A DNA stretch of 64,000 nucleotides from Microgenomates group bacterium GW2011_GWC1_46_15 (GCA_001002285.1 LCLX01000001.1:30-64029); one strand, 5' to 3'. Shown: positions 16,360 to 39,637, counted from the stretch's first letter. Numbers and translations: made by a program. Notes: generated from the sequence alone by a model not told the origin.

Positions 16360-18288
16360 TTAAGCGGCCGCCTGCAGTTGTGGTTGCGATAGCGGTTGAC
16401 CAGCCGGCGCTGGAGCGTTTTGTGCCTGGCCAGAGAGTTGCGAGGCACTTCGTTTTTGTAATATTTCTTCAGGATTCGTTGTAATAAGGTCGTGTTCGTC
16501 TTGCGACGCAACGACGCGGATCGCGACATGATTTTGTCCGGCAAAAAATAATCCTTCACCAACGTCGCTTGCTATCAAAAACCTCCGCTCTCCTTCGGAT
16601 AAGAAAAAGACTTGTGAGAGATAGGGGATCGCGGCAGACGACTGTTTCATTAAAAATTGAATGGACGAGTTTGTAACAATCGCTTTTCCAAAATCGTTGT
16701 TCAAAAAGTCCTCAACGTCCTGTGTGATCGTGGTGATGCCAAGATAATACTTGCGCGCGCGCTTCGCCATGGAGTGCAAGAAACTTGCGGAGTCTTTGTA
16801 CTTCATAAAGTACCACGCCTCATCGACGATCAGAATGCGTTTTTTAAGGTTTTTCTTAATGCGTGTCCAAACAAAATCAAGGATTAAAAACATCGCAATT
16901 GGGCGAAGTTCCTCTTCCATTTCTTTCACGGAAAACACAGTGAATTGATTTGTGATGTTGATGTTTGATTTTTGATCGAAAATACCACGGAATGACCCCT
17001 TGATGAATTTCTCCAGGCGCGCGGCGAGATTTTGGGACTCTTGGTTTTCCATTCCAAGAAGCGCTTTATATAAATCTTCCATAAGCGGAGGTTCATTGGT
17101 TTGTGTTGCCGGATCGGGTGTAATTCCTTTGGCCTTGTATGCCGCGATGAGCGCGCGGTCGAGCATCGCGTCTTCGGTTGGAGAAAGCTCTCCCATCATA
17201 ATTTTTAACAACGTATGAATGGAAATAATCTTCATTCCAAGCTCATTTTCACCCTCTTCATAGACCGCGCTCAAATCAAACGGATTGATTTTTTTAGGAG
17301 AACTAAACGTGAAGTTGATGTACTCGCCGCCAACGGATGTGCAAAGATCTTCGTACTCATGTTCGGGATCAAGAACAATGAGTTCGACATCAAACATGAG
17401 CTGGCGCAGAGCCTCAAGCTTCACGGCGTATGATTTTCCAGCACCGGATTTTGCAAACACCACCATGTTCGCGTTTTCCATACTAAACCGGTCGAAAATC
17501 ACCAACGAATCATTGTGCTCATTTACGCCGTACAACAGGCCCGTGTCGCTTGTGAGTTCGGCTGAAGTGAATGGGAATGTTGTCGCAAGCGACGTGGTGT
17601 CCATGTTGCGCGTGATCAAAAGTTTGTCCACGCCGATCGGGAGGGTGGTCTTAAACCCATCTTCAATTTGAAGCGCAGCAACCTTGCTCACAATAAGTAA
17701 TGAGCCGAGCATGGAGCGGATTTTATTTGTTGTTTTATTGAGTTCTTCCAGTGAAACATCAGAAATAGTGATATACAGTCCAAACTGGTAGAACCGTTCT
17801 GCGCCTTTTGCCAACTGTTCCTGGATTGATCGCGCGTCTTCTAGCTTAATTTCGGTATTAATATTACTCAGTTTTCCTTGCCGAATATCCGAACTAATTT
17901 CAGCCTCCATTTCAGTGATTTTCCGCCGTAAATCATCCAGAATCTTCTTTGATTCAACAGGGAAAATATGCATAGAAATGTCCAATGAATGCGGGAAATT
18001 AATGAGTGGGGAGAGCCAGTTTGCCGGAACGGTTCTTGGGTAGCCAGCGACAAATAATGTGCGGATAAACACATCATTGATTTTTTGGTATGAAAAATCC
18101 ACCTCAATTGCTTCCGGCGCAATAATGTCTTGGATGCTCACAAGGCCGGATGAAAATCGGTCAAGATCTTCTTTTGAAGGAATATGGGGCTGAGTACTGG
18201 ACGGGACAGTCGCCCCGCCGCTAGAGCTAGCGTTTTGCTGCGCAGAGTCTTTTTGTTTTGGTTTTAAAAACGGAAATGTGATGGGCAT
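16360..18288 (-). CDS. VirB4/TraE/PrgJ-like type IV secretion ATPase
   Basis: 642 aa; N-terminal DIIAPEAIEVDF...FVAGYPRTV typical of Gram-positive VirB4; Walker A FAKSGAGKSYAVK, Walker B ILIVDEAWYF. Confidence 0.8.
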   Translation of the reverse strand: MPITFPFLKPKQKDSAQQNASSSGGATVPSSTQPHIPSKEDLDRFSSGLVSIQDIIAPEAIEVDFSYQKINDVFIRTLFVAGYPRTVPANWLSPLINFPHSLDISMHIFPVESKKILDDLRRKITEMEAEISSDIRQGKLSNINTEIKLEDARSIQEQLAKGAERFYQFGLYITISDVSLEELNKTTNKIRSMLGSLLIVSKVAALQIEDGFKTTLPIGVDKLLITRNMDTTSLATTFPFTSAELTSDTGLLYGVNEHNDSLVIFDRFSMENANMVVFAKSGAGKSYAVKLEALRQLMFDVELIVLDPEHEYEDLCTSVGGEYINFTFSSPKKINPFDLSAVYEEGENELGMKIISIHTLLKIMMGELSPTEDAMLDRALIAAYKAKGITPDPATQTNEPPLMEDLYKALLGMENQESQNLAARLEKFIKGSFRGIFDQKSNINITNQFTVFSVKEMEEELRPIAMFLILDFVWTRIKKNLKKRILIVDEAWYFMKYKDSASFLHSMAKRARKYYLGITTITQDVEDFLNNDFGKAIVTNSSIQFLMKQSSAAIPYLSQVFFLSEGERRFLIASDVGEGLFFAGQNHVAIRVVASQDEHDLITTNPEEILQKRSASQLSGQAQNAPAPAGQPLSQPQLQAAA

Positions 18289-18314: not shown

Positions 18315-19337
18315 ATGTATGATGTTCAACACCGCGCCCCACGCCTACAATTTAATGCAATCCAATCAACAACACAAAACTATCTCGAAATCTACGACGT
18401 TACAAACGATCTCGTCATTTTGCGCGATGGAACCGTGGCGCTTCTCCTGACGACAAACTCGCTCAACTTTGGACTGCTTTCCGAAGAAGAACAGGACTCG
18501 ATCATTTACACGTACGCCGGCTTATTAAACTCACTCTCTTTCCCCATTGAAATCGTGATTCGGTCGCAGAAAAAAGATATTTCCGTGTATCTTCATTATG
18601 TTGAAGAACTTGAACAAAAAAATCCGATGCCAATTCGCAAAACGCAGATCCGCCGGTACCGCGAGTTTATTCAGGAGTTGGTAAAAGAACGGAATATTTT
18701 AGACAAGAAATTTTATATCGCAATTCCATTTGCGGGAGCGTCGCTATCGCTTTCCGGCGCGATTCCGAACATTAAGAAAGAAAAAACGTTTTCTTTAGAT
18801 AAAGCGTATGTTCTCGAAAAAGCAAAAACAGACCTGGAGCCCAAACGCGACCACTTGATCGCGCAGTTTGCCCGCATCGGACTATATGCCCGCCAGCTCA
18901 CAACGCAGGAAATTATTCATCTCATGTACACGATTTATAATCCTGGGACGTCTGAAGGACAGAGAATGACGGATACGGGAAGTTACACAACGCCGCTTGT
19001 TGAGGCGAGCTTGCAAGGAGTGATGAGTCAGCCAGCGCTGCAGTCGTTCACAAAAGATGCGGATATGGGTGAAAAAGTAGCACCGACACCAGCGCCACAA
19101 GCGCAAACCCCAGCACAAACGCCCCCACCAACTCAATTGGAAGAAAAACCCATCGTGCAACAATCCGCGCAACCACCCCAATCAGAAAAAACGAGTGGAA
19201 CTGTCCGCATTATTCCTCCAGGAGAGCCGGTAAAAATTCAGCCACCGACAATGCCAATAACGCCAACGATGCCAGGAGCATCAGTACCAACACCATCAAC
19301 GCTCCAGAATTTACAAACTCCAACACCGGTGGTTTAA
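18315..19337 (+). CDS. hypothetical protein with P/Q/T-rich C-terminal tail, divergent from VirB4-like gene
   Basis: 340 aa; N-terminal globular part, low-complexity PTPAPQAQTPAQTPPPTQ tail; T4SS context. Confidence 0.35.
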   Translation: MYDVQHRAPRLQFNAIQSTTQNYLEIYDVTNDLVILRDGTVALLLTTNSLNFGLLSEEEQDSIIYTYAGLLNSLSFPIEIVIRSQKKDISVYLHYVEELEQKNPMPIRKTQIRRYREFIQELVKERNILDKKFYIAIPFAGASLSLSGAIPNIKKEKTFSLDKAYVLEKAKTDLEPKRDHLIAQFARIGLYARQLTTQEIIHLMYTIYNPGTSEGQRMTDTGSYTTPLVEASLQGVMSQPALQSFTKDADMGEKVAPTPAPQAQTPAQTPPPTQLEEKPIVQQSAQPPQSEKTSGTVRIIPPGEPVKIQPPTMPITPTMPGASVPTPSTLQNLQTPTPVV

Positions 19338-19397: not shown

Positions 19398-20396
19398 TCA
19401 AACGTAAACCCGTCTTTTTCTGTGGTAATGCGGTACTCGCCAGACTTGAGTGGGGATGTTGAGAAAAACTGACCAAGTCTCCAACACCATGCCAACGACA
19501 ACGTTAGGGGTCGTTGGTGTTTTTGGAAAGGGGAGCATTGTGTTTACCGTAGCCTTCGTTGCGGTATCCGTTGCTTGTGATGAAAACGCAACTTGATCGG
19601 AATGATAGTGAAGCACATCTGGCGCTGCTTTTTGTGGTTGTAGCGCTTGTTCAGGCTTAATTCCTTGAGCAGTGTCACGGGCAACAGAAACAGGTTTTTC
19701 TCGCGCAATAGTCACGGTTTTATTTATCCCGGGAAGCACGCGGTCTTTCAACTCTCTTTGTTCTTTGATTTTTGAGAGTGAAATAATGCCGCGCATTTTT
19801 GACGGATCCTGCGCGTGTAAACTATGCATCGTAACAACGAGCGATGGTTTTTCAGCATACTCATCAAGCATATTTGGTCCACCACTGGAAACGGTAACAT
19901 TCTTTGCCGCGGGAGTAGTGTCGTATAACTGCTGAAGCGCCGCGACCCTATCATATATTTCTTGATCAAACTCATCCCGCACGACTGGTTTTGCGATGGA
20001 CTCAAAATACGCCTGTGCACGCGATGACCTGCTTTTTGCCGAACTCATCGGAAGTGGCGCAGTAGCCACGGTTTGCGAGCGCGTATATGAAAAAAGATCC
20101 GGCACGCGCAATGATTTTTTCCAGTTGAACTTTGTTGGGTTGTAAATGGCGCGGATAAACGCGAGAAACCATTGGTCGAGTGGCCGTTCCTCAAGCGGGA
20201 GAAACGCGAGCGCTGCTCCAGCTAGGACAAAGATAATAATAAGCGGAAACTTAAAAATCTGAGGAAGATTCGAAGAATATGTTAAAAATGCAAGCACGCC
20301 GCCCGACGCCAGTTCAAAAAACTGTTTCAGTGTCATGTTTCCAATGAGATGGAACTCGTATGACGTTACATTCTGTGGGACAGGATGCTCTTGCAT
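19398..20396 (-). CDS. PrgI-like (VirB3-analogue) T4SS membrane protein with long C-terminal extension
   Basis: N-terminus YEFHLIGNMTLKQFFELASGGVLAFLTY...PLIIIFVLAGAALAFLPLEERPLDQWFLAFIRAIYNPTKFNWKK matches PrgI family pattern (T-x-RQ, two TM, RP-x-D-x-W, K-x-x-W). Confidence 0.55.
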   Translation of the reverse strand: MQEHPVPQNVTSYEFHLIGNMTLKQFFELASGGVLAFLTYSSNLPQIFKFPLIIIFVLAGAALAFLPLEERPLDQWFLAFIRAIYNPTKFNWKKSLRVPDLFSYTRSQTVATAPLPMSSAKSRSSRAQAYFESIAKPVVRDEFDQEIYDRVAALQQLYDTTPAAKNVTVSSGGPNMLDEYAEKPSLVVTMHSLHAQDPSKMRGIISLSKIKEQRELKDRVLPGINKTVTIAREKPVSVARDTAQGIKPEQALQPQKAAPDVLHYHSDQVAFSSQATDTATKATVNTMLPFPKTPTTPNVVVGMVLETWSVFLNIPTQVWRVPHYHRKRRVYV

Positions 20397-20429: not shown

Positions 20430-21434
20430 TTATTGCGTAACCGCAGTGGTGATAATTTCGATGTGAGTGGGAAGCCCCTGTGCATTTTTTGCCGTTCCAC
20501 CAAAGCGGTAATAGGGAATATATGTTTGATCGGATGAAGTAAAACGGTACTCAATGTGTACAGAGTCAAACACAGCTTCGGTAAGAGCGCTAAGTGATAA
20601 AACATTTCCACCAACGATAGCAGAAGAAACAACTGTTCCTTTTCCACCCCGCAAGTTTTCAAGAGCCTGATTCATAGAAAGAGGAGTAATGTTTTTATCT
20701 TGTGTGGGTTGTGGTGGAACTATACTAAACTTCAGCTTTGCAATAGTCCCATCTGAACGAACAAAGGCCAATGCGGTTGGAGCAATTGTGCTTTCAAAGA
20801 AAACAGGGTATTCGTTGAGTGAAAATATAAAAGGAATGCTTGCAAGGTTTGCAACGATCCGATCTGCTTTTTCAAGATCATGTGTTTCTAAGAAAAATAA
20901 TGTATTTTTTCTATCAGGCAACAGGTGTTCTGTGTTAAAACCCAAAGAAGCAAGAAGGATTTCGGCGTTTTGAATACTGTTTGTAAATGTTTGTTCCAAC
21001 TGAAAGGTTGTTTTTGACGGCGATCCTCCTTGGCGGGAATACTCGACAGAACGGGAAACTTTGCTGTATGAAATTTCTTCCTGCGTTGATGGATTTGTCC
21101 ATACTCCCGCGTATGTTCCGGGTGGAAGAGCAAGTTTTTTAGCAAGAGCGGAAGCAAACTCTTCTGGTAACTGAGTTTTTCCGCTGGTATATGTTGCAAG
21201 TGTTAGGGGAAGAGTTGGCGCTGTTCCGGTGAAAGAAAATGATTGTATTGAAAGTTTTGGAACAATAGCAGGAATGTTTTGTTCAGCGCCTTCGGGCAGG
21301 GTGGGTTTTTTAGAACGTGAAAAGAGCACAAACCCAATGGCGAGCACCATGATAACAATACATAGAATAATCCAAGATGATTTTTTTGAAAAAGTGAAGT
21401 TCATAATGTACTCGTATTGTATCCCGGATCGCAT
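20430..21434 (-). CDS. hypothetical membrane-anchored protein (T4SS-like operon)
   Basis: 334 aa, N-terminal TM, no known motif; overlaps upstream gene by 34 nt (operonic). Confidence 0.35.
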   Translation of the reverse strand: MRSGIQYEYIMNFTFSKKSSWIILCIVIMVLAIGFVLFSRSKKPTLPEGAEQNIPAIVPKLSIQSFSFTGTAPTLPLTLATYTSGKTQLPEEFASALAKKLALPPGTYAGVWTNPSTQEEISYSKVSRSVEYSRQGGSPSKTTFQLEQTFTNSIQNAEILLASLGFNTEHLLPDRKNTLFFLETHDLEKADRIVANLASIPFIFSLNEYPVFFESTIAPTALAFVRSDGTIAKLKFSIVPPQPTQDKNITPLSMNQALENLRGGKGTVVSSAIVGGNVLSLSALTEAVFDSVHIEYRFTSSDQTYIPYYRFGGTAKNAQGLPTHIEIITTAVTQ

Positions 21435-24400
21435 TTCGACCGAACTTCTCCATCCATTATTGGTGGTTCCTGGACGATTTCATCACGGTATGCCCCGTGA
21501 ACCTCATAGTGTACGTGTGGCCCCGTTGAATGGCCGCTACTATTTACCGTTCCAATAACGTCTCCAATAGAAACAGAAGCCTCTGTCCCCGCACCAAAGT
21601 TACCAAAATCGTTGAGGTGTCCAAAGAAAAACACGAGATCTTTTCCGTTTATTGTTGACTTAAGGATGACGTGGTTTCCGTACCCACAATCTATGCCGAA
21701 TGCACTAGCAATACTACAAATTCCAAATCCTTCTGGGTAAAATGTTGCAACTCCGGGATACGGAGCGTATACCGGAGCACCCGTTGGCGCACCAATGTCA
21801 ATCGCTTGTCCACCAAGTCCTGGTCCTACACCACACACATTTTGCCCGGAAAGCCCCGTTTCACACCCATGATGAACGCCGTGAGTGCCACCACCGAGCC
21901 GTGAAGAATAAACATCGAGTCCATTCACTTGTCCGCTCGTTGGCCAGCATCCCTGATTACCAACTCCAGTTGCGTATATTGCAGAACGAATACTGCCTTC
22001 TACTGATGTTTGAAATGCCAACTGCCGTTGTTGTTGTGTAAGTGCCCCCCATCCCAAAACTCCAAGCCCTGTTGTGGCGACAACCGCTCCGGAGAATCCG
22101 CCGACCGTTCCAAGCCCCGCGCTTAACTGAGTCATAAAAGATGAAAATCCGGCACCAAGCCCAGTGAAAAATTTTGTTAGTCCACCTAGGGCCCATTTTC
22201 CAACAGCAGCAAAAAGATTTTTTGTTACTCCAAGGAGACCCGAAAGATTTGCGACTCCTTGTGAAAAAAACCACTTTGCTCCTTGCCAAATTGCCCATCC
22301 AATAAGACCCAAAATAAGTGCGATCGCGGCCATAATACCGGCAAGGATCGCGAGCAACAACTTGAGTTGTTTCCCAGTCATCTCAACAAGCTTGTTGTAT
22401 GCGTCTTGAATAATTGGGCCAAGAACTGGAATTTGCGAAGCAATTTGAATAACTTGGTTGAGTTTTTCAATGGCGGCAGCGGCTTCAGGTCCAAGAACGC
22501 CAGCGGCTAATATCGTAAGCACAAATTGACCCAACTGCCGGTCAAGATTGTTTTTATCCTGCGCGCCAGTAAACATTGGCGAGTTTTGTCCGGCAGAAAA
22601 TCCCTCACCCATGAATTCGCTCAACGCGCTTCCGGCCTCAAACAGCCCATCGTCACCGATATTTTGAAGATACAAAAACTGCACAAAATCCTGGCTCACG
22701 CCGTACTGCATAAAAAGCTGGTACAGCTGAGTTGTTTTCTCTTTTTGATGAAGCTGTTTCCATACCGTTGCAGAAAACGGTGTCGTAGGCGCGAATTGAT
22801 TCACTAAGTATTCCTGTATGCCTTGTGGTTGGCCAAGAAAATTCTGTATATGTTGATTGAGGGTTCCGCGGAAACGAGCACCGGCCTGATTTGGCTGAGG
22901 GGAAGTGCCATACAATCCCGCGGCAACCTCCTTAAATCCGAACGCCTGCAGCGCTTTTTCAACACCTAGCGTTACTTGCGGCCGCACCCCGTGTGTGGGA
23001 TCGGCATACAATACGCCGTTTTGATGCGTGAGCGCATAGATTTGTTGGCGGTGCGCGGAAATATAATGCAAAAAGAATGACTGCCAAGAGAATGCTTGCA
23101 CTCCGGCGGCTTTTGCGCGTGCGATCTCGGCCTCAAGATTTCTTTGTATCGTTGGACTTTGAAAAAGATCACTAAACAACCGTTCAAACGCTTTTTCATC
23201 CATCCGATCAACATTTGCTCGTGTAATTGCCAACGCTTTAAGTCGCAAAAGTACACCGTTAATATCTTGTTCGGGCACATGAATAGTTGTTAAAAATGTG
23301 CGGAGGTTTTTTTCAAGTGAGTCGGTATATGCCTCAGACGAGCGGATATCGGAGCCCGCTTTTTGATTAAACTCCGCGATTTTTTGAAGATTTGCTTCAA
23401 GCTCTTTACCATTTTCTTGATTTTTTAAAACGCCGCTGAATGTTGCGTTATCAATATTCTGTGCGATGGTTGCGGGTGTAATGGAGGCAAACTGCTGGGC
23501 AAACCGCTTTTTTGCCTGCACCTTGTTTTCAAACAATTTTCCATTTGTGGAGTTGAGCGCATCGAATAGCGCGTCTTGGAATGATCTCTTTGTTTGCGCG
23601 CGAATCATGATATCGCGGAACAACCGAAGTCGGGCGCCCGTTTTTCCAACATCTTCTGGCCGGAGTTTTTGCAGTTCAAGCAAAATAAATGGATATAACT
23701 CGTCGCGCGACTTAAAAAATGTGTTACGGAATACCACAAACTGCTGGTCATTTACACCATACGAAGCAGCGATACCACGAAGCACCGCCTCACGGATGCG
23801 TTCAGCCTCTTTGAGATACGCAATGTTAAACTTGTCGACGTCTTGCGCACGCGCATACAGGTCTTTATCAATAGGCTGGGGCGGTTTTTGTTCCTCCTGT
23901 TTCTTTTTCTCCTTTTCCTCCTTCTCTTTCTTCTTGTCTTTTTCGATGATGGGAATTGGAATACCAGCACCACCGCTAGTTTCTCCTTGTGCCTTCACAA
24001 CTTCTTCTGCAGTCTCTTCCTCTTTTTTGAGTTCTTCTATCGCCCCAATGGGCAAAACGATTGACTGCGCTTCTTCCAAACACGCAACCAGCAACGCCGC
24101 ATCATCAATGTCATTCTGCTTGCGCGCCGGCGTATATCCCTCAAGTTTTACCGCGCCAAATCGCGCGCTTTGCGCCCGTTCATTAAATACTTGCTGCTTA
24201 TGAAAAATGTCGAGATCAAACTCTTCGGGAATTTGCAGGCGAATGGTAATCAGCAAACTCAAGAGTTTATTGAGTGAAATATGATATCCGCCATCACTGT
24301 CCGGTGTTACGGCGAGCTCGGCGAGCAGAACATCGCGCCCCGCATTTGTCTGAAGCTCATGCAAGAGATGTGCCGCATTCTCAATATCGCGCTGAGAAAA

Positions 24401-24508
24401 CGGAACTTTTTGCAAGCGGTACACAACACTCTGAAGCTTGTGATTTGTAAGCCGTACTTCTGGAAAAAACTTTCGCGCAGCGTCTGCCATATCCGTATTG
24501 TATCTCAA
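21401..24508 (-). CDS. large multi-TM protein with C-terminal M23 (LytM-like) peptidoglycan peptidase domain; probable T4SS cell-wall hydrolase (PrgK/VirB1 functional analogue)
   Basis: 1035 aa; K/E-rich coiled region, Gly-rich TM bundle, C-terminal GYGNHVILKS...GHL...GTVNSSGHSTGPHVHYEV (M23 HxxxD/HxH motifs). Confidence 0.7.
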   Translation of the reverse strand: MRYNTDMADAARKFFPEVRLTNHKLQSVVYRLQKVPFSQRDIENAAHLLHELQTNAGRDVLLAELAVTPDSDGGYHISLNKLLSLLITIRLQIPEEFDLDIFHKQQVFNERAQSARFGAVKLEGYTPARKQNDIDDAALLVACLEEAQSIVLPIGAIEELKKEEETAEEVVKAQGETSGGAGIPIPIIEKDKKKEKEEKEKKKQEEQKPPQPIDKDLYARAQDVDKFNIAYLKEAERIREAVLRGIAASYGVNDQQFVVFRNTFFKSRDELYPFILLELQKLRPEDVGKTGARLRLFRDIMIRAQTKRSFQDALFDALNSTNGKLFENKVQAKKRFAQQFASITPATIAQNIDNATFSGVLKNQENGKELEANLQKIAEFNQKAGSDIRSSEAYTDSLEKNLRTFLTTIHVPEQDINGVLLRLKALAITRANVDRMDEKAFERLFSDLFQSPTIQRNLEAEIARAKAAGVQAFSWQSFFLHYISAHRQQIYALTHQNGVLYADPTHGVRPQVTLGVEKALQAFGFKEVAAGLYGTSPQPNQAGARFRGTLNQHIQNFLGQPQGIQEYLVNQFAPTTPFSATVWKQLHQKEKTTQLYQLFMQYGVSQDFVQFLYLQNIGDDGLFEAGSALSEFMGEGFSAGQNSPMFTGAQDKNNLDRQLGQFVLTILAAGVLGPEAAAAIEKLNQVIQIASQIPVLGPIIQDAYNKLVEMTGKQLKLLLAILAGIMAAIALILGLIGWAIWQGAKWFFSQGVANLSGLLGVTKNLFAAVGKWALGGLTKFFTGLGAGFSSFMTQLSAGLGTVGGFSGAVVATTGLGVLGWGALTQQQRQLAFQTSVEGSIRSAIYATGVGNQGCWPTSGQVNGLDVYSSRLGGGTHGVHHGCETGLSGQNVCGVGPGLGGQAIDIGAPTGAPVYAPYPGVATFYPEGFGICSIASAFGIDCGYGNHVILKSTINGKDLVFFFGHLNDFGNFGAGTEASVSIGDVIGTVNSSGHSTGPHVHYEVHGAYRDEIVQEPPIMDGEVRSKCDPGYNTSTL

Positions 24509-24514
24509 ACATGA

Positions 24515-26293
24515 TTACGAGATTGAAGAAAAAGAGGCGGACATCACCCGATTGAGAGGAAGAAGGGTGGATTGAATAAGCTCGCTCGCTCCAACGCGGC
24601 CAAACTGAAAAAAATCTGTTGCGGTTGGATCAGAAAACTCCCCGGCCCCCGTTGTTGTGCGCGAATCATCAGCAAAACTATTCTTTTCCCACGTCAGCTC
24701 GCACCGCCAACACACACCGCACTCACCAACAAAGTCTGTGTTTCCGCACGCGACACATGTTCCTTGTTTGAAGTTCTGGTCAAACCGTTCTTTGCCGATC
24801 AACTGCGCAATTTGATCCTTAGTAAACACGTGGCCACGGTCTTTAATCGCGGTAAACAACTCAGCCGAACCCATGCTCGGCAACCCAAGCCCCTGCATAA
24901 ATGAGGTGCTGTTTGCCATTTCGGTAAACCGCGTGAGTCCGCCAAAACTTCCAACCGTACAATCTAAACCAGAGTACATGCGGGATAAAACATTTCCCAT
25001 AGAAGGAGCCTTTTCAACCAAAGAGAGAAGATGAGTATTGCGTTGTTTCTGTAGTTGAATATCTGTCGTGTGGGCAGAGCGGTTTTCTGGATTAAAACTT
25101 TCTGTATATTGTGCGAGTGCTGCTTGAGTATCAAATGTTTTTTTCTTGTGCAGAAACGTATTCATGACGATGTCGAGGGCAACACGATTGAGGACGAACT
25201 CCCGCGTGTGATCAATGATGCCGTGCGCGCGGAGACGTTCAAACCGCGCATATTCTTCCAATAATACCGTCGAAATATACTCTGTGGCAGATTGAATAAC
25301 TGGAGACAGTTCAGAAAACTGACCAAGCGCAGTTTGTTGTTCTATAAAAAGTTGTTTGAATTTTTCATGCGATTGGAGCTGGGCAATCATCTCGCCAAAA
25401 AACTCCATCGCTCCTAAGGGCTGATAGTGTGAATCAACTGTAAAGACGGTATTCATAATATCGTTTTCGGTTGGCCGCACTGCAGAATCTTTTTGAGCAA
25501 ACTGCAGTGCCCGCACTTGTTCTTCATGCCCAAGCCGATTAAGGTATTGATGAATCAATACAACTCGCTGTTTTCCTTCAGGAAGCCAGGGAACATATAC
25601 CTCTTGCCACACATTCCAAAATGCTGTTTTCCCGGGATACACATCAAGATTTTGTGGAAGAACAAAAAAATGTTTGGGCCCAACAAGTGGCCGGCGCGTT
25701 TCATCTACATGTTTTTGCAAATCAATGTCATGAGGGAGGGCGCCTTCATATGGGACAAGGCCCGCCGGGATTGTCTCTCCATCTACATATTCTAGAAGCG
25801 CATGTGGACATATAGTATTGAACTCCTGAATAACTGTAGCAACACGTTCAACCTGTTTTTTTTCCAGAACAAACCGCGCGCGATATTCCGCATTTGCCGC
25901 GTGTTCAACCGCCCGCGCGCTTAAATCACGCAAATCATCATTTCCGTGATCCGGACTCAGGAGGCGCAACGCCCCATCTTCTTGTGGTTCGATAGTAAGA
26001 TAGCGCTGATCGTATACGGGAAAGCCAAGAATTTCTTTGAGTGCGTCGGTAAGTTGACGGCCGACAATTGCAGAAAGTTCAAACTTGATCTTTTCATATC
26101 TTTGTTGCGGTGACTCATGTTCGTATTTTTTGAAAAGATTGGGAAGAATGTAATCAAACACGTGGGAAAGGTTGAAGTGAGCGGCAACTTCGTGATTATT
26201 TTGTTGTCGTTTGGGCTGTTCAAATAGTTCCGATTGTCCAAATTGGTTGCGTTGATCAAACTGAATAGACTCAATAGTAGTGGTGCGCGCCAT
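24515..26293 (-). CDS. hypothetical protein with C-terminal zinc-ribbon (CxxC...CxxC)
   Basis: 592 aa; CVACGNTDFVGECGVCWRCE near C-terminus; first gene of minus-strand T4SS-like operon. Confidence 0.4.
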   Translation of the reverse strand: MARTTTIESIQFDQRNQFGQSELFEQPKRQQNNHEVAAHFNLSHVFDYILPNLFKKYEHESPQQRYEKIKFELSAIVGRQLTDALKEILGFPVYDQRYLTIEPQEDGALRLLSPDHGNDDLRDLSARAVEHAANAEYRARFVLEKKQVERVATVIQEFNTICPHALLEYVDGETIPAGLVPYEGALPHDIDLQKHVDETRRPLVGPKHFFVLPQNLDVYPGKTAFWNVWQEVYVPWLPEGKQRVVLIHQYLNRLGHEEQVRALQFAQKDSAVRPTENDIMNTVFTVDSHYQPLGAMEFFGEMIAQLQSHEKFKQLFIEQQTALGQFSELSPVIQSATEYISTVLLEEYARFERLRAHGIIDHTREFVLNRVALDIVMNTFLHKKKTFDTQAALAQYTESFNPENRSAHTTDIQLQKQRNTHLLSLVEKAPSMGNVLSRMYSGLDCTVGSFGGLTRFTEMANSTSFMQGLGLPSMGSAELFTAIKDRGHVFTKDQIAQLIGKERFDQNFKQGTCVACGNTDFVGECGVCWRCELTWEKNSFADDSRTTTGAGEFSDPTATDFFQFGRVGASELIQSTLLPLNRVMSASFSSIS

Positions 26294-26652: not shown

Positions 26653-27303
26653 GTGCATATGGAAATAAACTATAAATCCTTGATTTCAGAAAGTACTACC
26701 CCCTTTTTTACCAGACAAAATCTAAAAATACTTTTAGGACGCAATCGACGCACAGTGGACTATCGCATCAAGTCTTTAATCAAAGACGGAATATTGGTCG
26801 CGGTGAAATCCGGATTTTATATCAATAATGTCTTGTATAAAAGCACTTCTACCCCCAAAGACATGGTTCTCTATATAGGTGGGATATTGGTGCCACAAAG
26901 TTATGTTTCTCTGGAATATGCGTTGTCTTTTTATGGTTTTTTGGCTGAGCAGGTATACACCGTCACATATATCACAACGCAAAAGACCAGAAAGTTTCAA
27001 AATAACCTTTTCAGTTTCTCGTACCGGAACATAAAACCGGCGCTGTATTGGGGATATATGAAACGCCCTTTTGGAGACTTGTCTTATCAGATGGCCAGTC
27101 CCGCCAAAGCAATGTTTGATTTTCTCTATTTGACTCCAGCGGGGACTGATCAAGCAACCAGAAATTTGTTGTTTGACTCACGATTCAATTGGGGAGCGTT
27201 CTCCGCCAAAGATAAAAAGGAATTTCAAGAGATTATAGAAAAATCCACATCAAAAAAGATGGCAAATATACTGAAATACCTGACACAGGAGAATGTTATA
27301 TGA
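26653..27303 (+). CDS. AbiEi-like antitoxin/transcriptional regulator (type IV TA / abortive infection)
   Basis: 216 aa; N-terminal wHTH-like region; 4-nt overlap with downstream AbiEii gene. Confidence 0.55.
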   Translation: MHMEINYKSLISESTTPFFTRQNLKILLGRNRRTVDYRIKSLIKDGILVAVKSGFYINNVLYKSTSTPKDMVLYIGGILVPQSYVSLEYALSFYGFLAEQVYTVTYITTQKTRKFQNNLFSFSYRNIKPALYWGYMKRPFGDLSYQMASPAKAMFDFLYLTPAGTDQATRNLLFDSRFNWGAFSAKDKKEFQEIIEKSTSKKMANILKYLTQENVI

Positions 27304-28052
27304 ACAACCAAGGCATGTATCAAAGGAATGTCATCAAAGAACGTTTGCAGGATGAAATTCTACGTTTTATCTACAACAACGATGTGTATAGCGAATTAAT
27401 TTTTACGGGGGGGACGTGTCTACGTAAAGTATATGGTCTTAATCGCTTGTCCGAAGATCTGGATTTTGATTTTTCTCCCGATGTCTCATTTGACACTAAG
27501 ATATTTGCCAAAGACGTAAGGACATATCTATCGGCGGATACCAGAATATCCGGCAATAATAATACAGTGTTTGTCAAATTCCCCGACAACATTTTTGTAC
27601 GATGTGACTTTTCCCCGATTATCTTAGGGGAATATCAAATACAAAAGAGCTTGATTATGGCTGACAATTGTCAATTTTTTGTTAATGCATATGATTTACC
27701 CACTCTTTATGCCAACAAAATAGCGGCTTTTTTAAGTAGAAACTTTTTTAAAGGAAAGTTTCAAAAAATTCCTTTCAAAGGCCGCGACATTTATGATTTG
27801 TATTGGCTCCTTCAGCTTTCGGCAAAAACAGGATACACCCTCAAACCGAACATCCCACGATTAATGGCCCTTTTGGGAAAAGATTCTTTGCTGGAAATAA
27901 AGAATTTTGTCAAAGACAAGATATGTGCAGTAGATCCGCAGTTTGTTTACAATGACCTGTCCCCGCTTATTGAATCTAAAGAGTTTTTGGATCAGTTTTT
28001 ACAAGATTTTGGGAAAACAATTGTCAATCAACTAGACTATGTTTTAACATAA
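27300..28052 (+). CDS. AbiEii/AbiGii nucleotidyltransferase toxin (DUF1814)
   Basis: LIFTGGTCLRKVYGLNRLSEDLDFDF matches GGTAL...R.SEDIDF signature of AbiEii. Confidence 0.75.
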   Translation: MNNQGMYQRNVIKERLQDEILRFIYNNDVYSELIFTGGTCLRKVYGLNRLSEDLDFDFSPDVSFDTKIFAKDVRTYLSADTRISGNNNTVFVKFPDNIFVRCDFSPIILGEYQIQKSLIMADNCQFFVNAYDLPTLYANKIAAFLSRNFFKGKFQKIPFKGRDIYDLYWLLQLSAKTGYTLKPNIPRLMALLGKDSLLEIKNFVKDKICAVDPQFVYNDLSPLIESKEFLDQFLQDFGKTIVNQLDYVLT

Positions 28053-28100
28053 AAGTAATACATATTGACAAAGTATTACTTTATATAGTAGTATTACCAC

Positions 28101-28331
28101 ATGCACACAGCAACAATAACACAAAAAGGGCAAATAACGATTCCCTTGGTCTTGAGGGAAGCCTTTGGATTAAGAGCGTACGGTAAAGCCAGGCTGGAAC
28201 AAGGAGATGGTTTCATCAAGGTATACGCGCAGGAGGACATTTTGGATTTAGTTGATACATTTGTTCCCAAAGTGAAAAAACCACTCATGAAAACCCGCGA
28301 GGCGTTTGAAAAGAAATATACGAGGTTTTAA
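28101..28331 (+). CDS. AbrB/SpoVT-type antitoxin (VapB-like)
   Basis: 76 aa; ITQKGQITIPLVLREAFGL swapped-hairpin motif; overlaps PIN gene start (ATGA). Confidence 0.65.
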   Translation: MHTATITQKGQITIPLVLREAFGLRAYGKARLEQGDGFIKVYAQEDILDLVDTFVPKVKKPLMKTREAFEKKYTRF

Positions 28332-28750
28332 TGATCTATTTTATAGATACAAACATTTTTTTGAGAGTTCTCATACGGGAAAACGAAAGCGCGTTTCAGC
28401 AGAGTAAAGCCTTTTTAGAGATGGTAAAACGCAATGTATATGACGCGGTAACAAGCACGATGGTGATTTCCGAAATAGTGTGGACTCTGGGCTCCTATTA
28501 CAAATTTCCAAAGAAAAAAGTACTACGGACAATACAAGGAATACTTCATCTCAGCGGGCTAAAAATCGTGGACGAATACGATATAAACAAATCTCTTGCA
28601 CTCTATGAATCCCACACATGTAAATACATAGACGCCATGATCGCAGGAATGCCGGGGGTACAGTCGGGCGCCTGGAACATCGTTTCCTATGATAAGGAGT
28701 TTGACAAATTGGGTGTCAAAAGAGTGGTGCCCGCAAAATTGTTGAAATAG
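28331..28750 (+). CDS. PIN-domain ribonuclease toxin (VapC-like)
   Basis: 139 aa; N-terminal FIDTNIF acidic motif, PIN-like spacing of D/E residues. Confidence 0.75.
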   Translation: MIYFIDTNIFLRVLIRENESAFQQSKAFLEMVKRNVYDAVTSTMVISEIVWTLGSYYKFPKKKVLRTIQGILHLSGLKIVDEYDINKSLALYESHTCKYIDAMIAGMPGVQSGAWNIVSYDKEFDKLGVKRVVPAKLLK

Positions 28751-28756: not shown

Positions 28757-30169
28757 TTGTTATTCCCCTCCTTTTTCGTTAGTATGGAAGCTACTATGAG
28801 TGATGGAAACTTTGAGGGCGGAGCTCCGTCCACATCAGCACCAATAGCTCCGGTAGTAGATACGCCGGCGGTGCAGCCACCTCCATCCAATGAGGTCTCT
28901 GTAGAACAAGAGGCAACCAAGCGGTGGACTCCACCAAATCTTGATGACATTCCAGAGATGAAAAACGCAAAAAAACTTGGAGACAAAGAAACAAGCACAG
29001 ACTATGCGGCGTTCAAAAAAAGAGATAAGGATGGGAGCCTCATTCACGTTGATTTATCTGGAATGACCGACGAACAGAAAGAAAAAATCGATGGAATAGA
29101 CACATACTACGAGTTTGGGGGACAAACCGCGTATCATGATTTTGCAACATGGGCGGCCTCCGAAAAAGTTGGATTGTATGAGGAAAGGAAAAGCGAAGGC
29201 GGCCAAACAATAGGATTTCTTCCAAAAGAAGGAGTAAGTGTTAAAGACGCGTTTGATAGATTTCTCATTGAATCAGATAAAGGAAAAGCTATCGTCGCTT
29301 CAAAAACGACAGAAGTAGAAAAACAACGCGTGCGCCAAGAAGCAGATGGAGAATTTCTTGAGGGGATTGAAAAAGCGGTCGAAGACAGGAATTTGGGGGA
29401 GTTTACGCGACTGTATAGAGAAAGAATACAAAACGTCCTTAGAGATGGGGGGTTGAGCGATCAAGAAGTTGAAGAAATTTTTTCTTCGCAGAACGCATTT
29501 GTCCAAACGCTGAGAGAAATTGCAAGTAAAGGTGATCAAGATACAGAGGAAAAACCAACTGATGATGGAGTAAAAAAAGAACCCAAAACCCCTCTTGAAA
29601 AACTACTAGCGGGGGGAGATGAAGGAAGGCTAAAGAAACTACGAAAAAAACTTGGAGAACTTGATTTTTCTGCAGCGACAAACTTTGGAGAATCAATAGC
29701 CGCCGCAATTGAAAATGAAATGGACCTAGGAATACTTATTGATTATTTCTGCACAGGAAGGTATTACGACAAAATTGCGAAGAGCTTGGGATATAAATCA
29801 AAAGAAGAACTTGGGACAAAAGGAATTGGTCCCTCGGAAATTGAAGACTATACAAAAAGAGATCCCAAAAAAGAACTTCTCCTTTTAGCCAAGGGATTGG
29901 AAGAGGCGAGAATCATATCGGAAGAAGAATATAGAACCTATCTTGAGAGCGATTCCGCAGAAATATTAAAAAGTGAAGAATTTAGAAAAAAATTATCCAA
30001 TATTTCGAAAGAAAATAAACATAAATTTGATGAAGGGATTGTGAAAGAAATGAATAGGCTTGGACATGAAATCTCAAGAGAAGGGTTTGCATATTTAATG
30101 ATGATTCCTGAAAATGTAAAAAATCTTGGAGGAAATCAAACAAAAAACGAAGAACATGAGCAAGAGTAA
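28757..30169 (+). CDS. hypothetical acidic protein (ORFan), AT-rich island
   Basis: 470 aa, E/K-rich, no signal peptide or known motif; distinctly lower GC than flanks. Confidence 0.4.
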   Translation: MLFPSFFVSMEATMSDGNFEGGAPSTSAPIAPVVDTPAVQPPPSNEVSVEQEATKRWTPPNLDDIPEMKNAKKLGDKETSTDYAAFKKRDKDGSLIHVDLSGMTDEQKEKIDGIDTYYEFGGQTAYHDFATWAASEKVGLYEERKSEGGQTIGFLPKEGVSVKDAFDRFLIESDKGKAIVASKTTEVEKQRVRQEADGEFLEGIEKAVEDRNLGEFTRLYRERIQNVLRDGGLSDQEVEEIFSSQNAFVQTLREIASKGDQDTEEKPTDDGVKKEPKTPLEKLLAGGDEGRLKKLRKKLGELDFSAATNFGESIAAAIENEMDLGILIDYFCTGRYYDKIAKSLGYKSKEELGTKGIGPSEIEDYTKRDPKKELLLLAKGLEEARIISEEEYRTYLESDSAEILKSEEFRKKLSNISKENKHKFDEGIVKEMNRLGHEISREGFAYLMMIPENVKNLGGNQTKNEEHEQE

Positions 30170-30191
30170 TATTGCATGGTAAAATAACGGT

Positions 30192-38200: not shown

Positions 38201-38710
38201 ATTGCTGGAGTGAAACAGCAAATTTGTGACGTTGCCACAAAATATAACATTCCATATCAAGTGCTTTGGGGAACGTTTAAGATCGAAGGAGGGCGCGCGA
38301 GATCACGTGCATATAATGGCGGCGGGACGGTTGCTTGCAGCGTGAACTCTGTTGGAGCGGTTGGACCATTGCAGCATCTCGAAGATATCTGTCGCCCCGG
38401 CCAGATATCGCAGGAAAATGAAGCTCAAGGGAAAAATGTATGCGATTTTAATATTGGACTGGACGTAACGGCGCAAATTTATAAACGCTTTACCAATGAT
38501 CCGAATTATCAATATGCAGACGGGAAACCAAATTGGTATTGGATAACGGGGGAGTATAACATGGGTGGTAAAGTAACAGGATTTGGGCCCAAGTGCGAAG
38601 GTGCGCCAGCGACCGACGGATGTAATGGAGCAAACTATTGCGTCTGTGCAATAGAAACATTTGCAGATGAGATTTCTTGTCCCAATGCTCCGGAATTACT
38701 GAATATATAA
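35249..38710 (+). CDS. large secreted protein with C-terminal lysozyme-like/SLT-type domain (VirB1-like candidate)
   Basis: 1153 aa; signal peptide/TM; C-terminal KIEGGRARSRAYNGGGTVACSVNSVGAVGPLQHLEDI resembles the ES...GA.GLMQ transglycosylase motif. Confidence 0.45.
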   Translation: MRLRSKISFFVSREPSTLSSSKRKYLAYCIFLIILFAFEIFATLAPIKAFAAGNVLGTHLAFFDPGNQIRILQFIKSLKPPAQYPITAVAEISWGEDSNNSLTSLVAELNAGDYAINLRIAGLAADTTPAQVVALAQKLNQVTWVYGKPIIIFGNEDNNIDVEWYFSDLSVASAKYAELFTAFAGALDTSKMDLSAAPIPEHPKYPQSAFLNGAATVFKSPKISAFVFNLYDNGAGSFEPSGWRTQQAFEGIKPRKVLTEFGPNPQNPADNTYKNWSEFLKKYENTLPEGFQTATVLVPNLCDKTTTLANQWYYYILGNFYDSNLNEIDESCSAQTGTVIFPGPDDILSSCAATGGGAACESKFQEVASKYMMTCSPVITFKPSIDPAGEEIKIGSFVGTLLDYCANRQSDNNCIFDPVKNTIDVNASSATFPYIRSQTPGRTGSLEGFFTTDTQRTRTNVNDFTQYSPLSKLQPAGLTCKQNIQQLESVETLCREFSDPLKQGRMADNQPSLVEKFRSALGLKPGACDLNATIDGKKYLDILKDVRDTMGGNAQSYCTSDTFLHPQADTETTLVKLVMRVQPVLRAAYKKAYFVIYLQAPSENTDAASALISALFHTKDKGQELFKVVPVLIPATFGSQKDDSDIYRIDGTKVEGASFNGAYTQTISPLLSGNAQKNISDKLIEDEQTIFSQMQRLGGSAPGNPDLLNVSGCVPGPESQTSLACQFASRVNAGLQKHEFTIPNQKGTCEFHEEVAGGQTAQVLNTPVKAGFLDTILAFFSSLFEPQKSDISVTGNINAGKLDEISEEQAKLRVFLLIPRSEFGLIKYTEKALYQAIVPDAASQKVFTEVKEGKILDTNEFLRTQGVMLNEQGGAKRSYLTNASPAPVIPPATPVPITTELTASFKPQGDANPLLYGGWLARMIHSFTANVLAPVASTIYDASYETTKGLENYWLRGGKGMGLNYGKEITSCDGYRQQTTMMPNIAGVKQQICDVATKYNIPYQVLWGTFKIEGGRARSRAYNGGGTVACSVNSVGAVGPLQHLEDICRPGQISQENEAQGKNVCDFNIGLDVTAQIYKRFTNDPNYQYADGKPNWYWITGEYNMGGKVTGFGPKCEGAPATDGCNGANYCVCAIETFADEISCPNAPELLNI

Positions 38711-39149: not shown

Positions 39150-39183
39150 GGGGTCAATTGTAGCATACACGAAAACCAAAAGA

Positions 39184-39213: not shown

Positions 39214-39257
39214 ATCCCCTTTCAGAGGATTCTCTCTGTACACGGAAAAATTAAATT

Positions 39258-39593: not shown

Positions 39594-39637
39594 ATTCCTC
39601 CTTTATTCACACGTATACCTGTATTGTACGGCGTGTT

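What the first reader, a model, noticed from the sequence alone, without database searches (positions are those of the whole stretch)
21401..24508. Giant polytopic protein fusing a K/E-rich coiled region, Gly-rich TM bundle and M23 peptidase
This architecture is unusual for an M23 enzyme. The catalytic domain is at the extreme C-terminus, after about 8 Gly-rich TM segments, and the N-terminal 450 aa are cytoplasmic and charged. It may couple peptidoglycan (or host cell-wall) cleavage to the secretion channel, analogous to PrgK/TcpG but built differently.
Basis: inference. Interest (0 to 1): 0.55.

Follow-up and report, generated by a model that had tools for sequence, protein, structure and literature searches.

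The report
Membrane-anchored T4SS peptidase with swappable head
This is a real 1029-residue gene in the type IV secretion-like gene cluster of an ultra-small (CPR) bacterium, most likely a membrane-anchored cell-wall peptidase, and relatives swap its C-terminal enzyme module together with the gene immediately downstream.

Summary
The ORF is real, and its exact product is in public databases from a Candidatus Pacebacteria genome. It is not a giant polytopic protein. It has a helical N-terminal domain, a ~55-aa K/E-rich disordered linker, a ~430-aa helical region and a Gly-rich membrane region. That region holds one clear transmembrane helix and one to three weaker ones, not eight. A C-terminal M23 domain follows. 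The non-M23 part has only 11 relatives among 1.84 billion representatives; named ones are Microgenomates/Pacebacteria. Every locus with enough flank keeps the order: Zn-ribbon protein, this protein, bitopic partner, PrgI/VirB3-like, TrsD-like, VirB4, dnaN, dnaA. This is the PrgK ground plan (cytoplasmic domain, membrane anchor, external hydrolase) without detectable sequence homology to it. The M23 site is non-canonical: Gly replaces the first His of HxxxD in the whole family, while Asp, the third His, HxH and an upstream His are invariant. Two members replace M23 at a sharp junction with an unrelated HExxH module. The downstream partner switches family with the module in 9 of 9 loci. Best reading: a T4SS-coupled wall peptidase with a cognate partner. 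This is a new variant of a known kind.

The parts
21401..24490 (-). Whole gene (1029 aa plus stop). The probable start is the ATG at 24490. The mechanical ORF extends to a TTG at 24508.
   Evidence: ORF list. Identical 1029-aa database protein P0001. The start region compared across five loci shows a conserved TACAAT 6-7 nt upstream of the ATG.
24017..24490 (-). N-terminal all-helical domain, aa 1-158. No signal peptide, so inferred to be cytoplasmic.
   Evidence: AF2 pLDDT is 80-95 for this region in both models. It is conserved in 7 full-length relatives. Fold search of the aa 1-490 model containing it found no match in the PDB or BFVD.
23846..24016 (-). K/E-rich low-complexity linker, about aa 159-215 (for example EKDKKKEKEEKEKKKQEEQK).
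   Evidence: Composition: 40-46% of residues are charged. pLDDT is 28-55. The segment is present in all full-length members, with variable sequence. It could be an ER/K-type single helix or a disordered spacer; this is inference.
22556..23845 (-). Central helical region, aa 216-645. It is the most conserved part of the scaffold (invariant Y244-G245, R287, F304-Q305, R416-L417).
   Evidence: Alignments A1 and A4. AF2 pLDDT is 70-88 for aa 220-490 and low beyond that. No Pfam, PHROG, plasmid or phage match.
21956..22555 (-). Gly/Ala-rich membrane region, aa 646-845. It contains a weak hydrophobic segment (652-677), a strong TM (711-738, nt 22277-22360), a K-rich loop (739-773) and a 48-aa uncharged Gly-rich stretch (774-821, nt 22028-22171).
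   Evidence: Hydropathy and charge analysis of all family members. AF2 models a long helix at aa 690-742, at low confidence.
21401..21955 (-). C-terminal M23 module, aa 846-1029 plus stop. Key residues: C848-W849-P850, H870, G894 at the canonical His position, D898, H958, H992-x-H994, E996 and C1020.
   Evidence: Pfam PF01551. PDB sequence alignments. Family alignment A3 with its invariant residues. Foldseek hits to lysostaphin, EnpA and LytM.
20430..21404 (-). Downstream partner gene. It encodes a 324-aa bitopic protein (an N-terminal TM followed by about 285 aa). Its ATG overlaps the stop codon of the M23 gene (ATGA).
   Evidence: Sequence of the junction. Hydropathy. It is homologous in all 7 M23 loci and replaced by an unrelated family in both HExxH loci.
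24515..26293 (-). Upstream gene. It encodes a 592-aa soluble protein with a C-terminal CxxC...CxxC zinc ribbon and ends 24 nt before the M23 gene.
   Evidence: No TM segment and no Pfam hit. A protein of similar size with the same Cys motif sits in this position in 7 of 8 loci.
19398..20396 (-). PrgI (VirB3-like) protein, 332 aa.
   Evidence: Pfam PF12666, E=1e-8. It occupies the same position in the related loci.
18315..19337 (+). TraC/TrsD-like protein (similar to the N-terminal part of VirB4). It is inverted here relative to most relatives.
   Evidence: Weak Pfam TraC_F_IV hit. PF26593 TraC-like is recorded in the related loci.
16360..18288 (-). VirB4-type ATPase, 642 aa.
   Evidence: Pfam P-loop_TraG at E=1e-26, plus AAA_10 and CagE_TrbE_VirB.

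Best explanation
The gene encodes a membrane-anchored cell-wall endopeptidase that belongs to the origin-proximal T4SS-like machine of Microgenomates/Pacebacteria. It is a functional counterpart of the Gram-positive VirB1-class hydrolases such as PrgK.

Proposed mechanism:
- The first ~645 residues stay in the cytoplasm, because there is no signal peptide and the region is highly charged and all-helical. There they probably dock onto cytoplasmic parts of the machine, such as VirB4, the TrsD-like protein or the adjacent zinc-ribbon protein.
- About three membrane spans carry the chain out: one strong helix plus Gly-rich weaker ones.
- The C-terminal M23 domain, probably braced by a C848-C1020 disulfide, sits outside the membrane. 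It cuts peptide cross-links in peptidoglycan next to the channel and pilus. The target could be the cell's own wall, to let the apparatus through, or the wall of the host cell at the contact site.
- Zinc is probably held by D898, H994 and a relocated first ligand (H870), because the canonical His position is Gly.
- The translationally coupled downstream bitopic protein is a cognate partner of the external module. It may inhibit it, dock it or regulate it.

Shown: the domain content, the synteny, the residue conservation, the module swap and the partner co-variation. Inferred: the topology, the catalytic competence, the disulfide, the docking partners and the substrate.
For: The M23 domain passes Pfam's threshold and the fold matches at probability 1.0.

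The family is small and keeps its architecture.

Gene order is conserved at 22-28% identity. The order is Zn-ribbon protein, this protein, bitopic partner, PrgI, TrsD-like, VirB4, dnaN, dnaA.

T4SS_pilin arrays lie in the same window.

Published work places Patescibacterial T4SS clusters next to dnaA. It also reports VirB1-like proteins with M23 domains, and a peptidase next to virB4 that is essential in S. epibionticum (PMC12102498).

PrgK has the same plan of cytoplasmic domain, TM helix and external hydrolases, and it binds the bitopic protein PrgL (PMC11323569).

D898, H958, H992, H994, E996, H870 and the pair C848/C1020 are invariant across members whose module is only 35-42% identical to the query's. 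A wider 'GCWP' M23 subclade keeps the same pattern.

Spacing of H-x13-D occurs in M23A enzymes (PMC8715609).

The alternative module carries the catalytic motif HExxH. This argues that an external metallopeptidase activity is what is selected.

The partner gene overlaps by ATGA.
Against: The canonical first zinc ligand is missing in every member. Activity is therefore unproven, and the LytM domain of PrgK is known to be inactive.

The topology rests only on hydropathy and charge, and the membrane region is modelled at low confidence.

The N-terminal 645 aa have no recognisable relative or fold, so docking to the T4SS is inferred from gene order alone.

No sequence homology to PrgK, TraG or CwlT was detected.

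The exchange of module and partner together is not a known property of VirB1-class hydrolases.
Confidence: 0.55

Rival explanations
1. It is a polymorphic effector with an immunity protein. On this reading the conserved scaffold is a delivery or presentation platform. The C-terminal peptidase (M23 or HExxH) is an exchangeable warhead aimed at the host cell envelope, either displayed at the contact site or released and passed through the T4SS. The downstream bitopic protein is the cognate immunity protein that shields the producer's own wall.
For: P0004 and P0008 are 58% identical up to about residue 860 and unrelated after that. The HExxH modules of P0004 and P0012 are homologous to each other (E=5e-20). 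The downstream gene's family tracks the module in 9 of 9 loci, and the two partner families show no profile-profile similarity. The HExxH cassette sits on two divergent scaffolds. The partner is external and membrane-anchored, as expected for protection against an enzyme acting outside the membrane. The ATGA overlap points to translational coupling.
Against: Only two module types were seen among about 9 loci. No orphan module/immunity arrays were seen in the flanks examined. No known pre-toxin, trafficking or self-cleavage domain was found. The scaffold has its own membrane anchor, which argues against translocation of the whole protein. The M23-type partner, at about 330 aa, is large for an immunity protein. 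The gene is single-copy, syntenic and core to the cluster.
Confidence: 0.2
2. The M23 domain is a non-catalytic LytM-type regulatory or peptidoglycan-binding domain, like those of EnvC, NlpD, DipM or PrgK. It would position or control another hydrolase of the cluster instead of cutting peptidoglycan itself.
For: The His of HxxxD is replaced by Gly or Ser in all family members. The LytM domain of PrgK is degenerate and regulatory. DipM and EnvC appear among the structural and sequence matches.
Against: Only one of the five catalytic positions (H, D, H, H-x-H) is changed. The other four, plus an upstream His, are invariant across members whose module is only 35-42% identical to the query's, and in a wider subclade. 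The degenerate LytM domain of PrgK lacks both the HxxxD and HxH motifs. The alternative module keeps an intact HExxH...E motif.
Confidence: 0.13
3. It is a VirB6-like channel subunit fused to a hydrolase, so the Gly-rich hydrophobic region would form the translocation pore.
For: VirB6 homologues are reported as scarce in Microgenomatia. The protein has a Gly-rich hydrophobic region. Its gene lies two genes upstream of the PrgI-like gene.
Against: There is only one strong TM helix and at most about 3-4 spans. GxxxG and glycine-zipper motifs are not consistently enriched in the family. A separate 593-aa protein with a signal peptide and about 6-7 TM segments, which is VirB6-like in topology, lies at 32750-34531.
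Confidence: 0.06
4. It is a prophage tape-measure or ejection protein remnant, with a long helical part, hydrophobic segments and an M23 domain.
For: PHROG tape-measure families match, but only over the M23 domain. Phage internal proteins with M23 domains appear among the PDB hits. The low-confidence full-length model gives a weak long Foldseek alignment to a cyanophage pre-ejectosome protein.
Against: The non-M23 part has no match in 50,697 phage records or in BFVD (best E=0.07). No phage genes flank it. The synteny with VirB4, PrgI and dnaA is conserved in every locus long enough to show it.
Confidence: 0.03

Closest known systems
PrgK of pCF10 (Gram-positive VirB1-like hydrolase, DELTA class) and TraG of pIP501
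   Same: Both are encoded inside a MPF-FATA-type T4SS cluster. Both have an intracellular N-terminal domain, a membrane anchor and external cell-wall hydrolase domain(s). PrgK also carries a LytM/M23-fold domain. In both cases a bitopic membrane protein is encoded immediately downstream; for PrgK this is PrgL, which binds PrgK (PMC11323569, PMC12857230).
   Different: No sequence similarity was detectable outside the M23 fold. The N-terminal part is about 645 aa here against about 253 aa in PrgK. There is no muramidase/SLT or CHAP domain. The M23 domain here keeps four of five catalytic positions, whereas the LytM domain of PrgK lacks both motifs. There are extra Gly-rich hydrophobic segments. 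The C-terminal module and the downstream gene are exchanged together in relatives.
Canonical M23B peptidases (LytM, lysostaphin, EnpA, ShyA) and M23A (beta-lytic protease, LasA)
   Same: They share the fold, the Asp of HxxxD, the mid-domain catalytic His and the HxH motif. As in M23A (H22...D36), a conserved His lies well upstream of the Asp.
   Different: The canonical His position is Gly. The candidate replacement His lies 10-27 residues before the Asp, across a loop of variable length. An invariant Cys pair brackets the domain, and a 'GCWPxSG' motif precedes it.
Polymorphic toxin-immunity systems (for example CdiA-CT/CdiI, Rhs, LXG)
   Same: There is a conserved N-terminal scaffold, a sharp junction, non-homologous C-terminal enzymatic modules, and an adjacent downstream gene that changes with the module.
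   Different: No known trafficking or pre-toxin domains were found. The scaffold is itself membrane-anchored and is a syntenic core gene of a secretion cluster. Only two module types have been seen, and toxicity and immunity are untested.
Patescibacterial T4SS as described for Saccharimonadia and across the phylum (Wang et al. 2023; Quinonero-Coronel et al. 2025)
   Same: The cluster is chromosomal and next to dnaA. It has VirB4, PrgI-like and TrsD-like genes and VirB2-type pilin arrays, and no relaxase was identified among the genes examined. Peptidoglycan hydrolases are associated with it.
   Different: This protein family was not found outside a small Microgenomates/Pacebacteria group. The passages of these papers examined here (term searches plus selected sections) do not describe it, the module swap or the co-varying partner.

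Membership tests
Peptidase M23 (PF01551, LytM/lysostaphin type) | The sequence profile match is above the curated threshold. | tested here: met
   E=2.2e-12 and 47.4 bits against a 28.7 cut-off, at aa 901-1004 of the 1035-aa ORF. Five relatives (P0003, P0005, P0006, P0008 and P0002) also pass or carry PF01551.
Peptidase M23 (PF01551, LytM/lysostaphin type) | The protein has the M23 beta-sheet fold. | tested here: met
   Foldseek against the PDB gives lysostaphin, EnpA, LytM, Csd3 and ShyA at probability 1.0. The pLDDT of this domain is only 57-83.
Peptidase M23 (PF01551, LytM/lysostaphin type) | The HxxxD motif is present, supplying the first His and the Asp as zinc ligands. | tested here: not met
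   The Asp (D898) is present, but the His position is Gly (G894). It is Gly or Ser in all six M23-bearing members, and T, E, L or A in the wider GCWP subclade. Ordinary M23 sequences in the same alignment keep HxxxD.
Peptidase M23 (PF01551, LytM/lysostaphin type) | The HxH motif and the mid-domain catalytic His are present. | tested here: met
   H992-V-H994 and H958 (in GHL) are invariant in the family.
Peptidase M23 (PF01551, LytM/lysostaphin type) | The domain binds zinc and has endopeptidase activity. | not testable with these tools
H870 as a replacement ligand is an inference, supported by its invariance and by the H-x13-D spacing in M23A (PMC8715609).
Gram-positive VirB1-like T4SS hydrolases (PrgK/TraG type) | The gene lies inside a T4SS gene cluster with VirB4 and VirB3-like genes. 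| tested here: met
   This holds in the window and in every relative's locus long enough to show it.
Gram-positive VirB1-like T4SS hydrolases (PrgK/TraG type) | The protein is membrane-anchored with the hydrolase domain outside (N-in, C-out). | tested here: inconclusive
   There is no signal peptide and there is one strong TM plus weaker segments. An invariant Cys pair in the module suggests an external location. No dedicated topology predictor or experiment was available.
Gram-positive VirB1-like T4SS hydrolases (PrgK/TraG type) | The protein has a glycosidase (SLT or muramidase) and/or a CHAP domain. | tested here: not met
   Pfam and NCBIfam find only M23.
Gram-positive VirB1-like T4SS hydrolases (PrgK/TraG type) | The protein shows sequence homology to PrgK, TrsG or CD419. 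| tested here: not met
   tblastn of aa 1-854 against 72,556 plasmids gave no match. The exhaustive HMMER search returned only the 11 family members. The specific MPF-FATA profiles were not available to run.
VirB6/TrbL channel subunits | The protein is polytopic, with five or more TM segments. | tested here: not met
   There is one strong segment and at most about 3-4 in total. No TrbL or VirB6 Pfam hit was found.
Degenerate LytM regulators (EnvC, NlpD, DipM, PrgK-LytM) | The metal-binding motifs HxxxD and HxH are lost. | tested here: not met
   Only the first His is lost. D898, H958, H992 and H994 are invariant. The LytM domain of PrgK lacks both motifs (PMC11323569).
Polymorphic toxin-immunity systems | A conserved scaffold carries non-homologous C-terminal modules after a sharp junction. 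| tested here: met
   P0004 and P0008 are 58% identical to about residue 860 and unrelated beyond it. The HExxH module is shared by P0004 and P0012.
Polymorphic toxin-immunity systems | The adjacent downstream gene co-varies with the module. | tested here: met
   This holds in 9 of 9 loci: 7 M23 loci with one partner family and 2 HExxH loci with another. hhalign between the two partner families gives probability 0.4%.
Polymorphic toxin-immunity systems | The module is toxic, and toxicity is neutralised by the cognate partner. A recognised trafficking or pre-toxin domain is present. | not testable with these tools
   No known trafficking domain appears in Pfam. Function needs experiments.
Phage tape-measure or ejection proteins | The gene has a phage tail or virion gene context, and the helical part is homologous to phage proteins. 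| tested here: not met
   PHROG hits cover the M23 domain only. There was no tblastn hit in phages and no significant BFVD hit for the aa 1-490 model. The context is T4SS plus the replication origin.

The most novel reading that the evidence does not exclude
In these host-dependent ultra-small bacteria, the T4SS-like machine may carry a built-in, exchangeable, host-directed peptidase 'warhead' (M23 or HExxH) on a conserved membrane scaffold. The co-inherited downstream protein would be its immunity or safety partner. That would be a polymorphic effector-immunity cassette integrated into a core structural gene of a secretion system. It would adapt the episymbiont to the cell-wall chemistry of different hosts.
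Probability: 0.2. Interest if true: 0.8.

Novelty: new variant of a known kind. Interest (0 to 1): 0.52.

Why it matters
The T4SS of Patescibacteria is the first T4SS shown to be essential for the growth of its bearer on a host (Wang et al. 2023, as summarised in PMC12857230). What it transports, and how it crosses two cell walls, is not known.

This family gives a concrete, testable wall-cutting component for the Microgenomates version of the machine. Standard profiles find few of the usual subunits in that group.

The swap of the catalytic module together with the downstream partner marks out the pair of proteins most likely to interact. It also marks the part of the machine most likely to be tuned to a particular wall, either the cell's own or the host's.

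The M23 subclade with a relocated first histidine and a conserved cysteine pair is also a small, checkable addition to what is known about the active sites of this enzyme family.

Tried and rejected
1. Word-indexed homolog searches with the full protein and with a profile of the non-M23 part returned only the protein itself and a 79% relative. The exhaustive HMMER search was needed to find the family.

As a result the GTDB genome collection was never scanned.

3. Glycine-zipper or GxxxG pore motif in the membrane region. Enrichment over shuffles appears in only 2 of 8 members and not in the query. This idea was rejected.

4. Tape-measure or ejection protein origin. This was rejected: there are no phage hits outside the M23 domain.

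5. VirB6 identity. This was rejected on TM count and because a better candidate exists elsewhere in the window.

6. VirB8/PrgL identity of the downstream partner. Sequence profiles find nothing in the PDB, including the solved VirB8-like proteins.

8. My by-eye reading of an SLT-like motif in the 1153-aa protein, and of VirB6-like topology in the 593-aa protein, got no support from Pfam or PDB sequence searches.

9. The simple sigma-70 scan does not report a promoter at the conserved TACAAT.

Full report
**Observation**

The window holds a 1035-codon ORF at 21401..24508 on the minus strand. A 1029-aa protein that starts at the in-frame ATG at 24490 is present, 100% identical over 99% of the query, in public databases. 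It comes from a MAG named Candidatus Pacebacteria bacterium, and a 79% relative also exists.

The six extra codons of the mechanical ORF ('MRYNTD') overlap a TACAAT hexamer. That hexamer is conserved at the DNA level 6-7 nt upstream of the ATG in five loci whose proteins are only 22-28% identical.

The window is chromosomal and lies at the replication origin. The genes dnaA, dnaN, yidC, jag and rnhA sit directly beside the cluster.

**Anatomy**

- Pfam finds Peptidase_M23 at the extreme C-terminus, above the gathering score. NCBIfam finds only weak M23-type matches.
- Kyte-Doolittle and charge analysis gives no signal peptide and a soluble, charged first ~645 residues.
- The membrane region has a weak hydrophobic segment at 652-677, one strong segment at 711-738, a Lys-rich loop, and a 48-residue uncharged Gly-rich stretch at 774-821.
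- All eight full-length members show the same pattern. About three spans (N-in, C-out) is my best guess, and it is an inference.
- The K/E-rich part is confined to about aa 159-215 and is modelled as disordered.
- AF2 with the family alignment gave a poor full-length model (mean pLDDT 52). It did give a confident N-terminal helical domain (aa 10-155, pLDDT 80-92) and a moderately confident M23 domain.
- A second model of aa 1-490 with 12 sequences reached mean pLDDT 75.7 and is all-helical. It has no significant Foldseek match in the PDB (best E=0.3) or among viral structures (best E=0.07).
- tblastn of aa 1-854 finds nothing in 72,556 plasmids or 50,697 phage records. PHROG matches, including those to tape-measure families, cover only the M23 domain.

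**Family and context**

An exhaustive HMMER search of aa 1-854 against 1.84 billion representatives returned only 11 proteins. Seven of them are full length (943-1071 aa) and about 25-28% identical apart from the 77% relative. Members that carry names come from Microgenomates-group or Pacebacteria MAGs. They are annotated 'hypothetical' or 'Glycine-rich cell wall protein'.

Every locus with enough flank keeps the same order:
- a 516-641 aa soluble protein with a C-terminal CxxC...CxxC (seven of eight loci; the short L002 locus has an unrelated 223-aa protein instead);
- this protein;
- a bitopic protein;
- a PrgI (VirB3-like) protein;
- a TraC/TrsD-like protein;
- VirB4;
- dnaN and dnaA.

The window also carries seven tandem T4SS_pilin (PF18895) genes at 38715-41482 and two more near 47140-48268.

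This matches the published picture of the Patescibacterial T4SS. That picture is MPF-FATA-like and next to dnaA, with VirB2-type pilin arrays, usually no relaxase, VirB6 scarce in Microgenomatia, and some VirB1-like proteins carrying M23 (PMC12102498). The system is essential in S. epibionticum (PMC10633639; PMC12857230).

**The M23 site**

Alignments to solved M23 enzymes and the family alignment agree:
- the Asp of HxxxD (D898), the mid-domain His (H958) and HxH (H992, H994) are present and invariant;
- the first His of HxxxD is Gly (G894) here, and Gly or Ser in every M23-bearing member;
- an upstream His (H870), 10-27 residues before the Asp across a loop of variable length, is invariant;
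- a Cys pair (C848 and C1020) that brackets the domain is also invariant.

A wider set of short M23 proteins shares the 'GCWPxSG' motif, the upstream His, a non-His residue at the canonical position and the C-terminal Cys. Ordinary M23 sequences in the same alignment keep HxxxD.

Within family M23, the M23A enzymes already separate the two ligands. Beta-lytic protease uses His22, Asp36, His82, His121 and His123 (PMC8715609).

I therefore think a relocated first ligand is more likely than an inactive domain. I could not measure geometry because model coordinates are not exposed. For contrast, the degenerate LytM domain of PrgK lacks both motifs (PMC11323569).

**Module swap and co-varying partner**

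P0004 and P0008 come from loci with the same gene order. They are 58% identical over residues 1 to about 860, which is the end of the membrane region, and unrelated after that. P0008 ends in M23. P0004 ends in a ~215-aa module with HEMGHVLDNRN...ETFAE. That module is homologous to the C-terminus of P0012 (31% identity, E=5e-20) and has no Pfam or PDB relative.

The gene immediately downstream is a bitopic membrane protein whose ATG overlaps the stop codon (ATGA in the window). The called genes overlap by four bases in five of the eight related loci.

- In all seven M23 loci these partners are mutually homologous (E between 1e-5 and 1e-42).
- In both HExxH loci a different, mutually homologous partner is found (E about 1e-17).
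- There is no similarity across the two types. Profile-profile comparison gives probability 0.4%.

The scaffold of P0012 is no closer to P0004 (24%) than to M23-bearing members (22-27%). The HExxH cassette therefore sits on two divergent scaffolds. The module and its partner are inherited or exchanged as a unit.

**Interpretation**

The most economical reading is a T4SS-coupled, membrane-anchored wall peptidase built on the PrgK plan. That plan is a cytoplasmic N-terminal domain, a membrane anchor, an external hydrolase and a bitopic protein encoded next door that binds it (PMC12857230). There is no detectable sequence homology to PrgK. The differences are a far larger cytoplasmic part, a single and probably active peptidase domain, and an exchangeable head.

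The cassette behaviour is what polymorphic effector-immunity systems show. I keep that as the main rival and as the most novel reading. Against it are the small number of module types, the absence of known trafficking domains and the scaffold's own membrane anchor.

The other rivals are less likely:
- An inactive LytM regulator is possible, but disfavoured by the invariance of four catalytic residues and by the intact HExxH alternative.
- VirB6 identity fails the TM-count test. A better VirB6-like candidate by topology lies at 32750-34531, although it has no profile support.
- A phage tape-measure or ejection origin fails the context and homology tests.

**Verdict**

This is a new variant of a known kind, the Gram-positive-type VirB1-class T4SS hydrolase. 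It has three features that I did not find in the passages of the papers I examined (term searches plus selected sections):
- a new cytoplasmic scaffold that, in this search, was found only in a small Microgenomates/Pacebacteria group;
- an M23 subclade with a displaced first histidine and a conserved cysteine pair;
- a catalytic module that is exchanged together with the downstream partner gene.

Noticed in passing
window 24491-24508; L001 9980-10000; L004 9995-10019; L006 9980-10001; L002 1595-1612: A TACAAT hexamer is conserved 6-7 nt upstream of the ATG of the M23 gene in five loci whose proteins are only 22-28% identical. It could be a -10 box that gives a leaderless or near-leaderless transcript. 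It explains the pseudo-conserved 'MRYNT' N-terminal extensions in some gene calls. The simple sigma-70 scan does not report it.
   Followed up: partly
window 18315-19337 (+); L001 15222-16235: The TraC/TrsD-like gene between the PrgI-like gene and virB4 is inverted relative to its neighbours in this genome and its 79% relative. It is co-oriented in L004, L006 and L009.
   Followed up: no
window 24515-26293 (-): The gene upstream of the M23 protein encodes a 592-aa soluble protein with a C-terminal CxxC-x8-17-CxxC zinc ribbon and no Pfam hit. A protein of similar size with the same Cys motif occupies this position in 7 of 8 loci. These proteins fall into two groups with no significant BLAST similarity to each other. 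The groups do not follow the grouping of the partner or the scaffold, which hints at mosaic loci.
   Followed up: partly
window 38715-41482 (-), 47140-47502 (-), 47513-48268 (-): Seven tandem paralogous VirB2-type pilin genes (Pfam T4SS_pilin, four of the nine above threshold) share a GG..W...GGD.GK motif. Two more lie further on, and one of those is fused to a Cys-rich 170-aa N-terminal domain. PilO- and PilN-like genes follow at 41925-43561.
   Followed up: partly
window 32750-34531 (-): A 593-aa protein has a signal-peptide-like N-terminus, about 6-7 hydrophobic segments and a Gly-rich tail. By topology it is the best VirB6-like candidate in the window, but it has no Pfam or PDB sequence support.
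   Followed up: partly
window 28757-32738 (+): Two large soluble, very charged proteins (470 and 848 aa) lie in a stretch of lower G+C (38-41%) with strong purine skew (GC skew 0.15-0.19, AT skew 0.20-0.24). They have no significant family match.
   Followed up: no
window 26653-28750 (+); L001 1-7888: Toxin-antitoxin-type genes sit between the two halves of the T4SS-like region: AbiEii with an upstream 216-aa gene, and what looks by eye like a PIN-type 139-aa gene. The 79% relative has the equivalent set (AbiEii, PIN and BrnT).
   Followed up: no
L011 4733-8631: In one relative (P0007) the M23 domain is split. The 976-aa product ends just after the ALDIS motif, and an overlapping 336-aa ORF carries the rest of the M23 match. 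This is either a frameshift, an assembly error, or a real split or insertion.
   Followed up: no
L007 239-2863 (P0012): This HExxH-bearing member starts at the position equivalent to about aa 222. It therefore lacks the N-terminal domain and the K/E linker. Only 238 nt of contig lie upstream, so it is unclear whether the N-terminal domain is absent or encoded separately.
   Followed up: no
window 35249-38710 (+): A 1153-aa Cys-rich protein with an N-terminal anchor lies between the VirB6-like candidate and the pilin array. By eye its C-terminus has an SLT-like 'E...GPLQ' pattern, but neither Pfam nor PDB sequence search supports this.
   Followed up: partly
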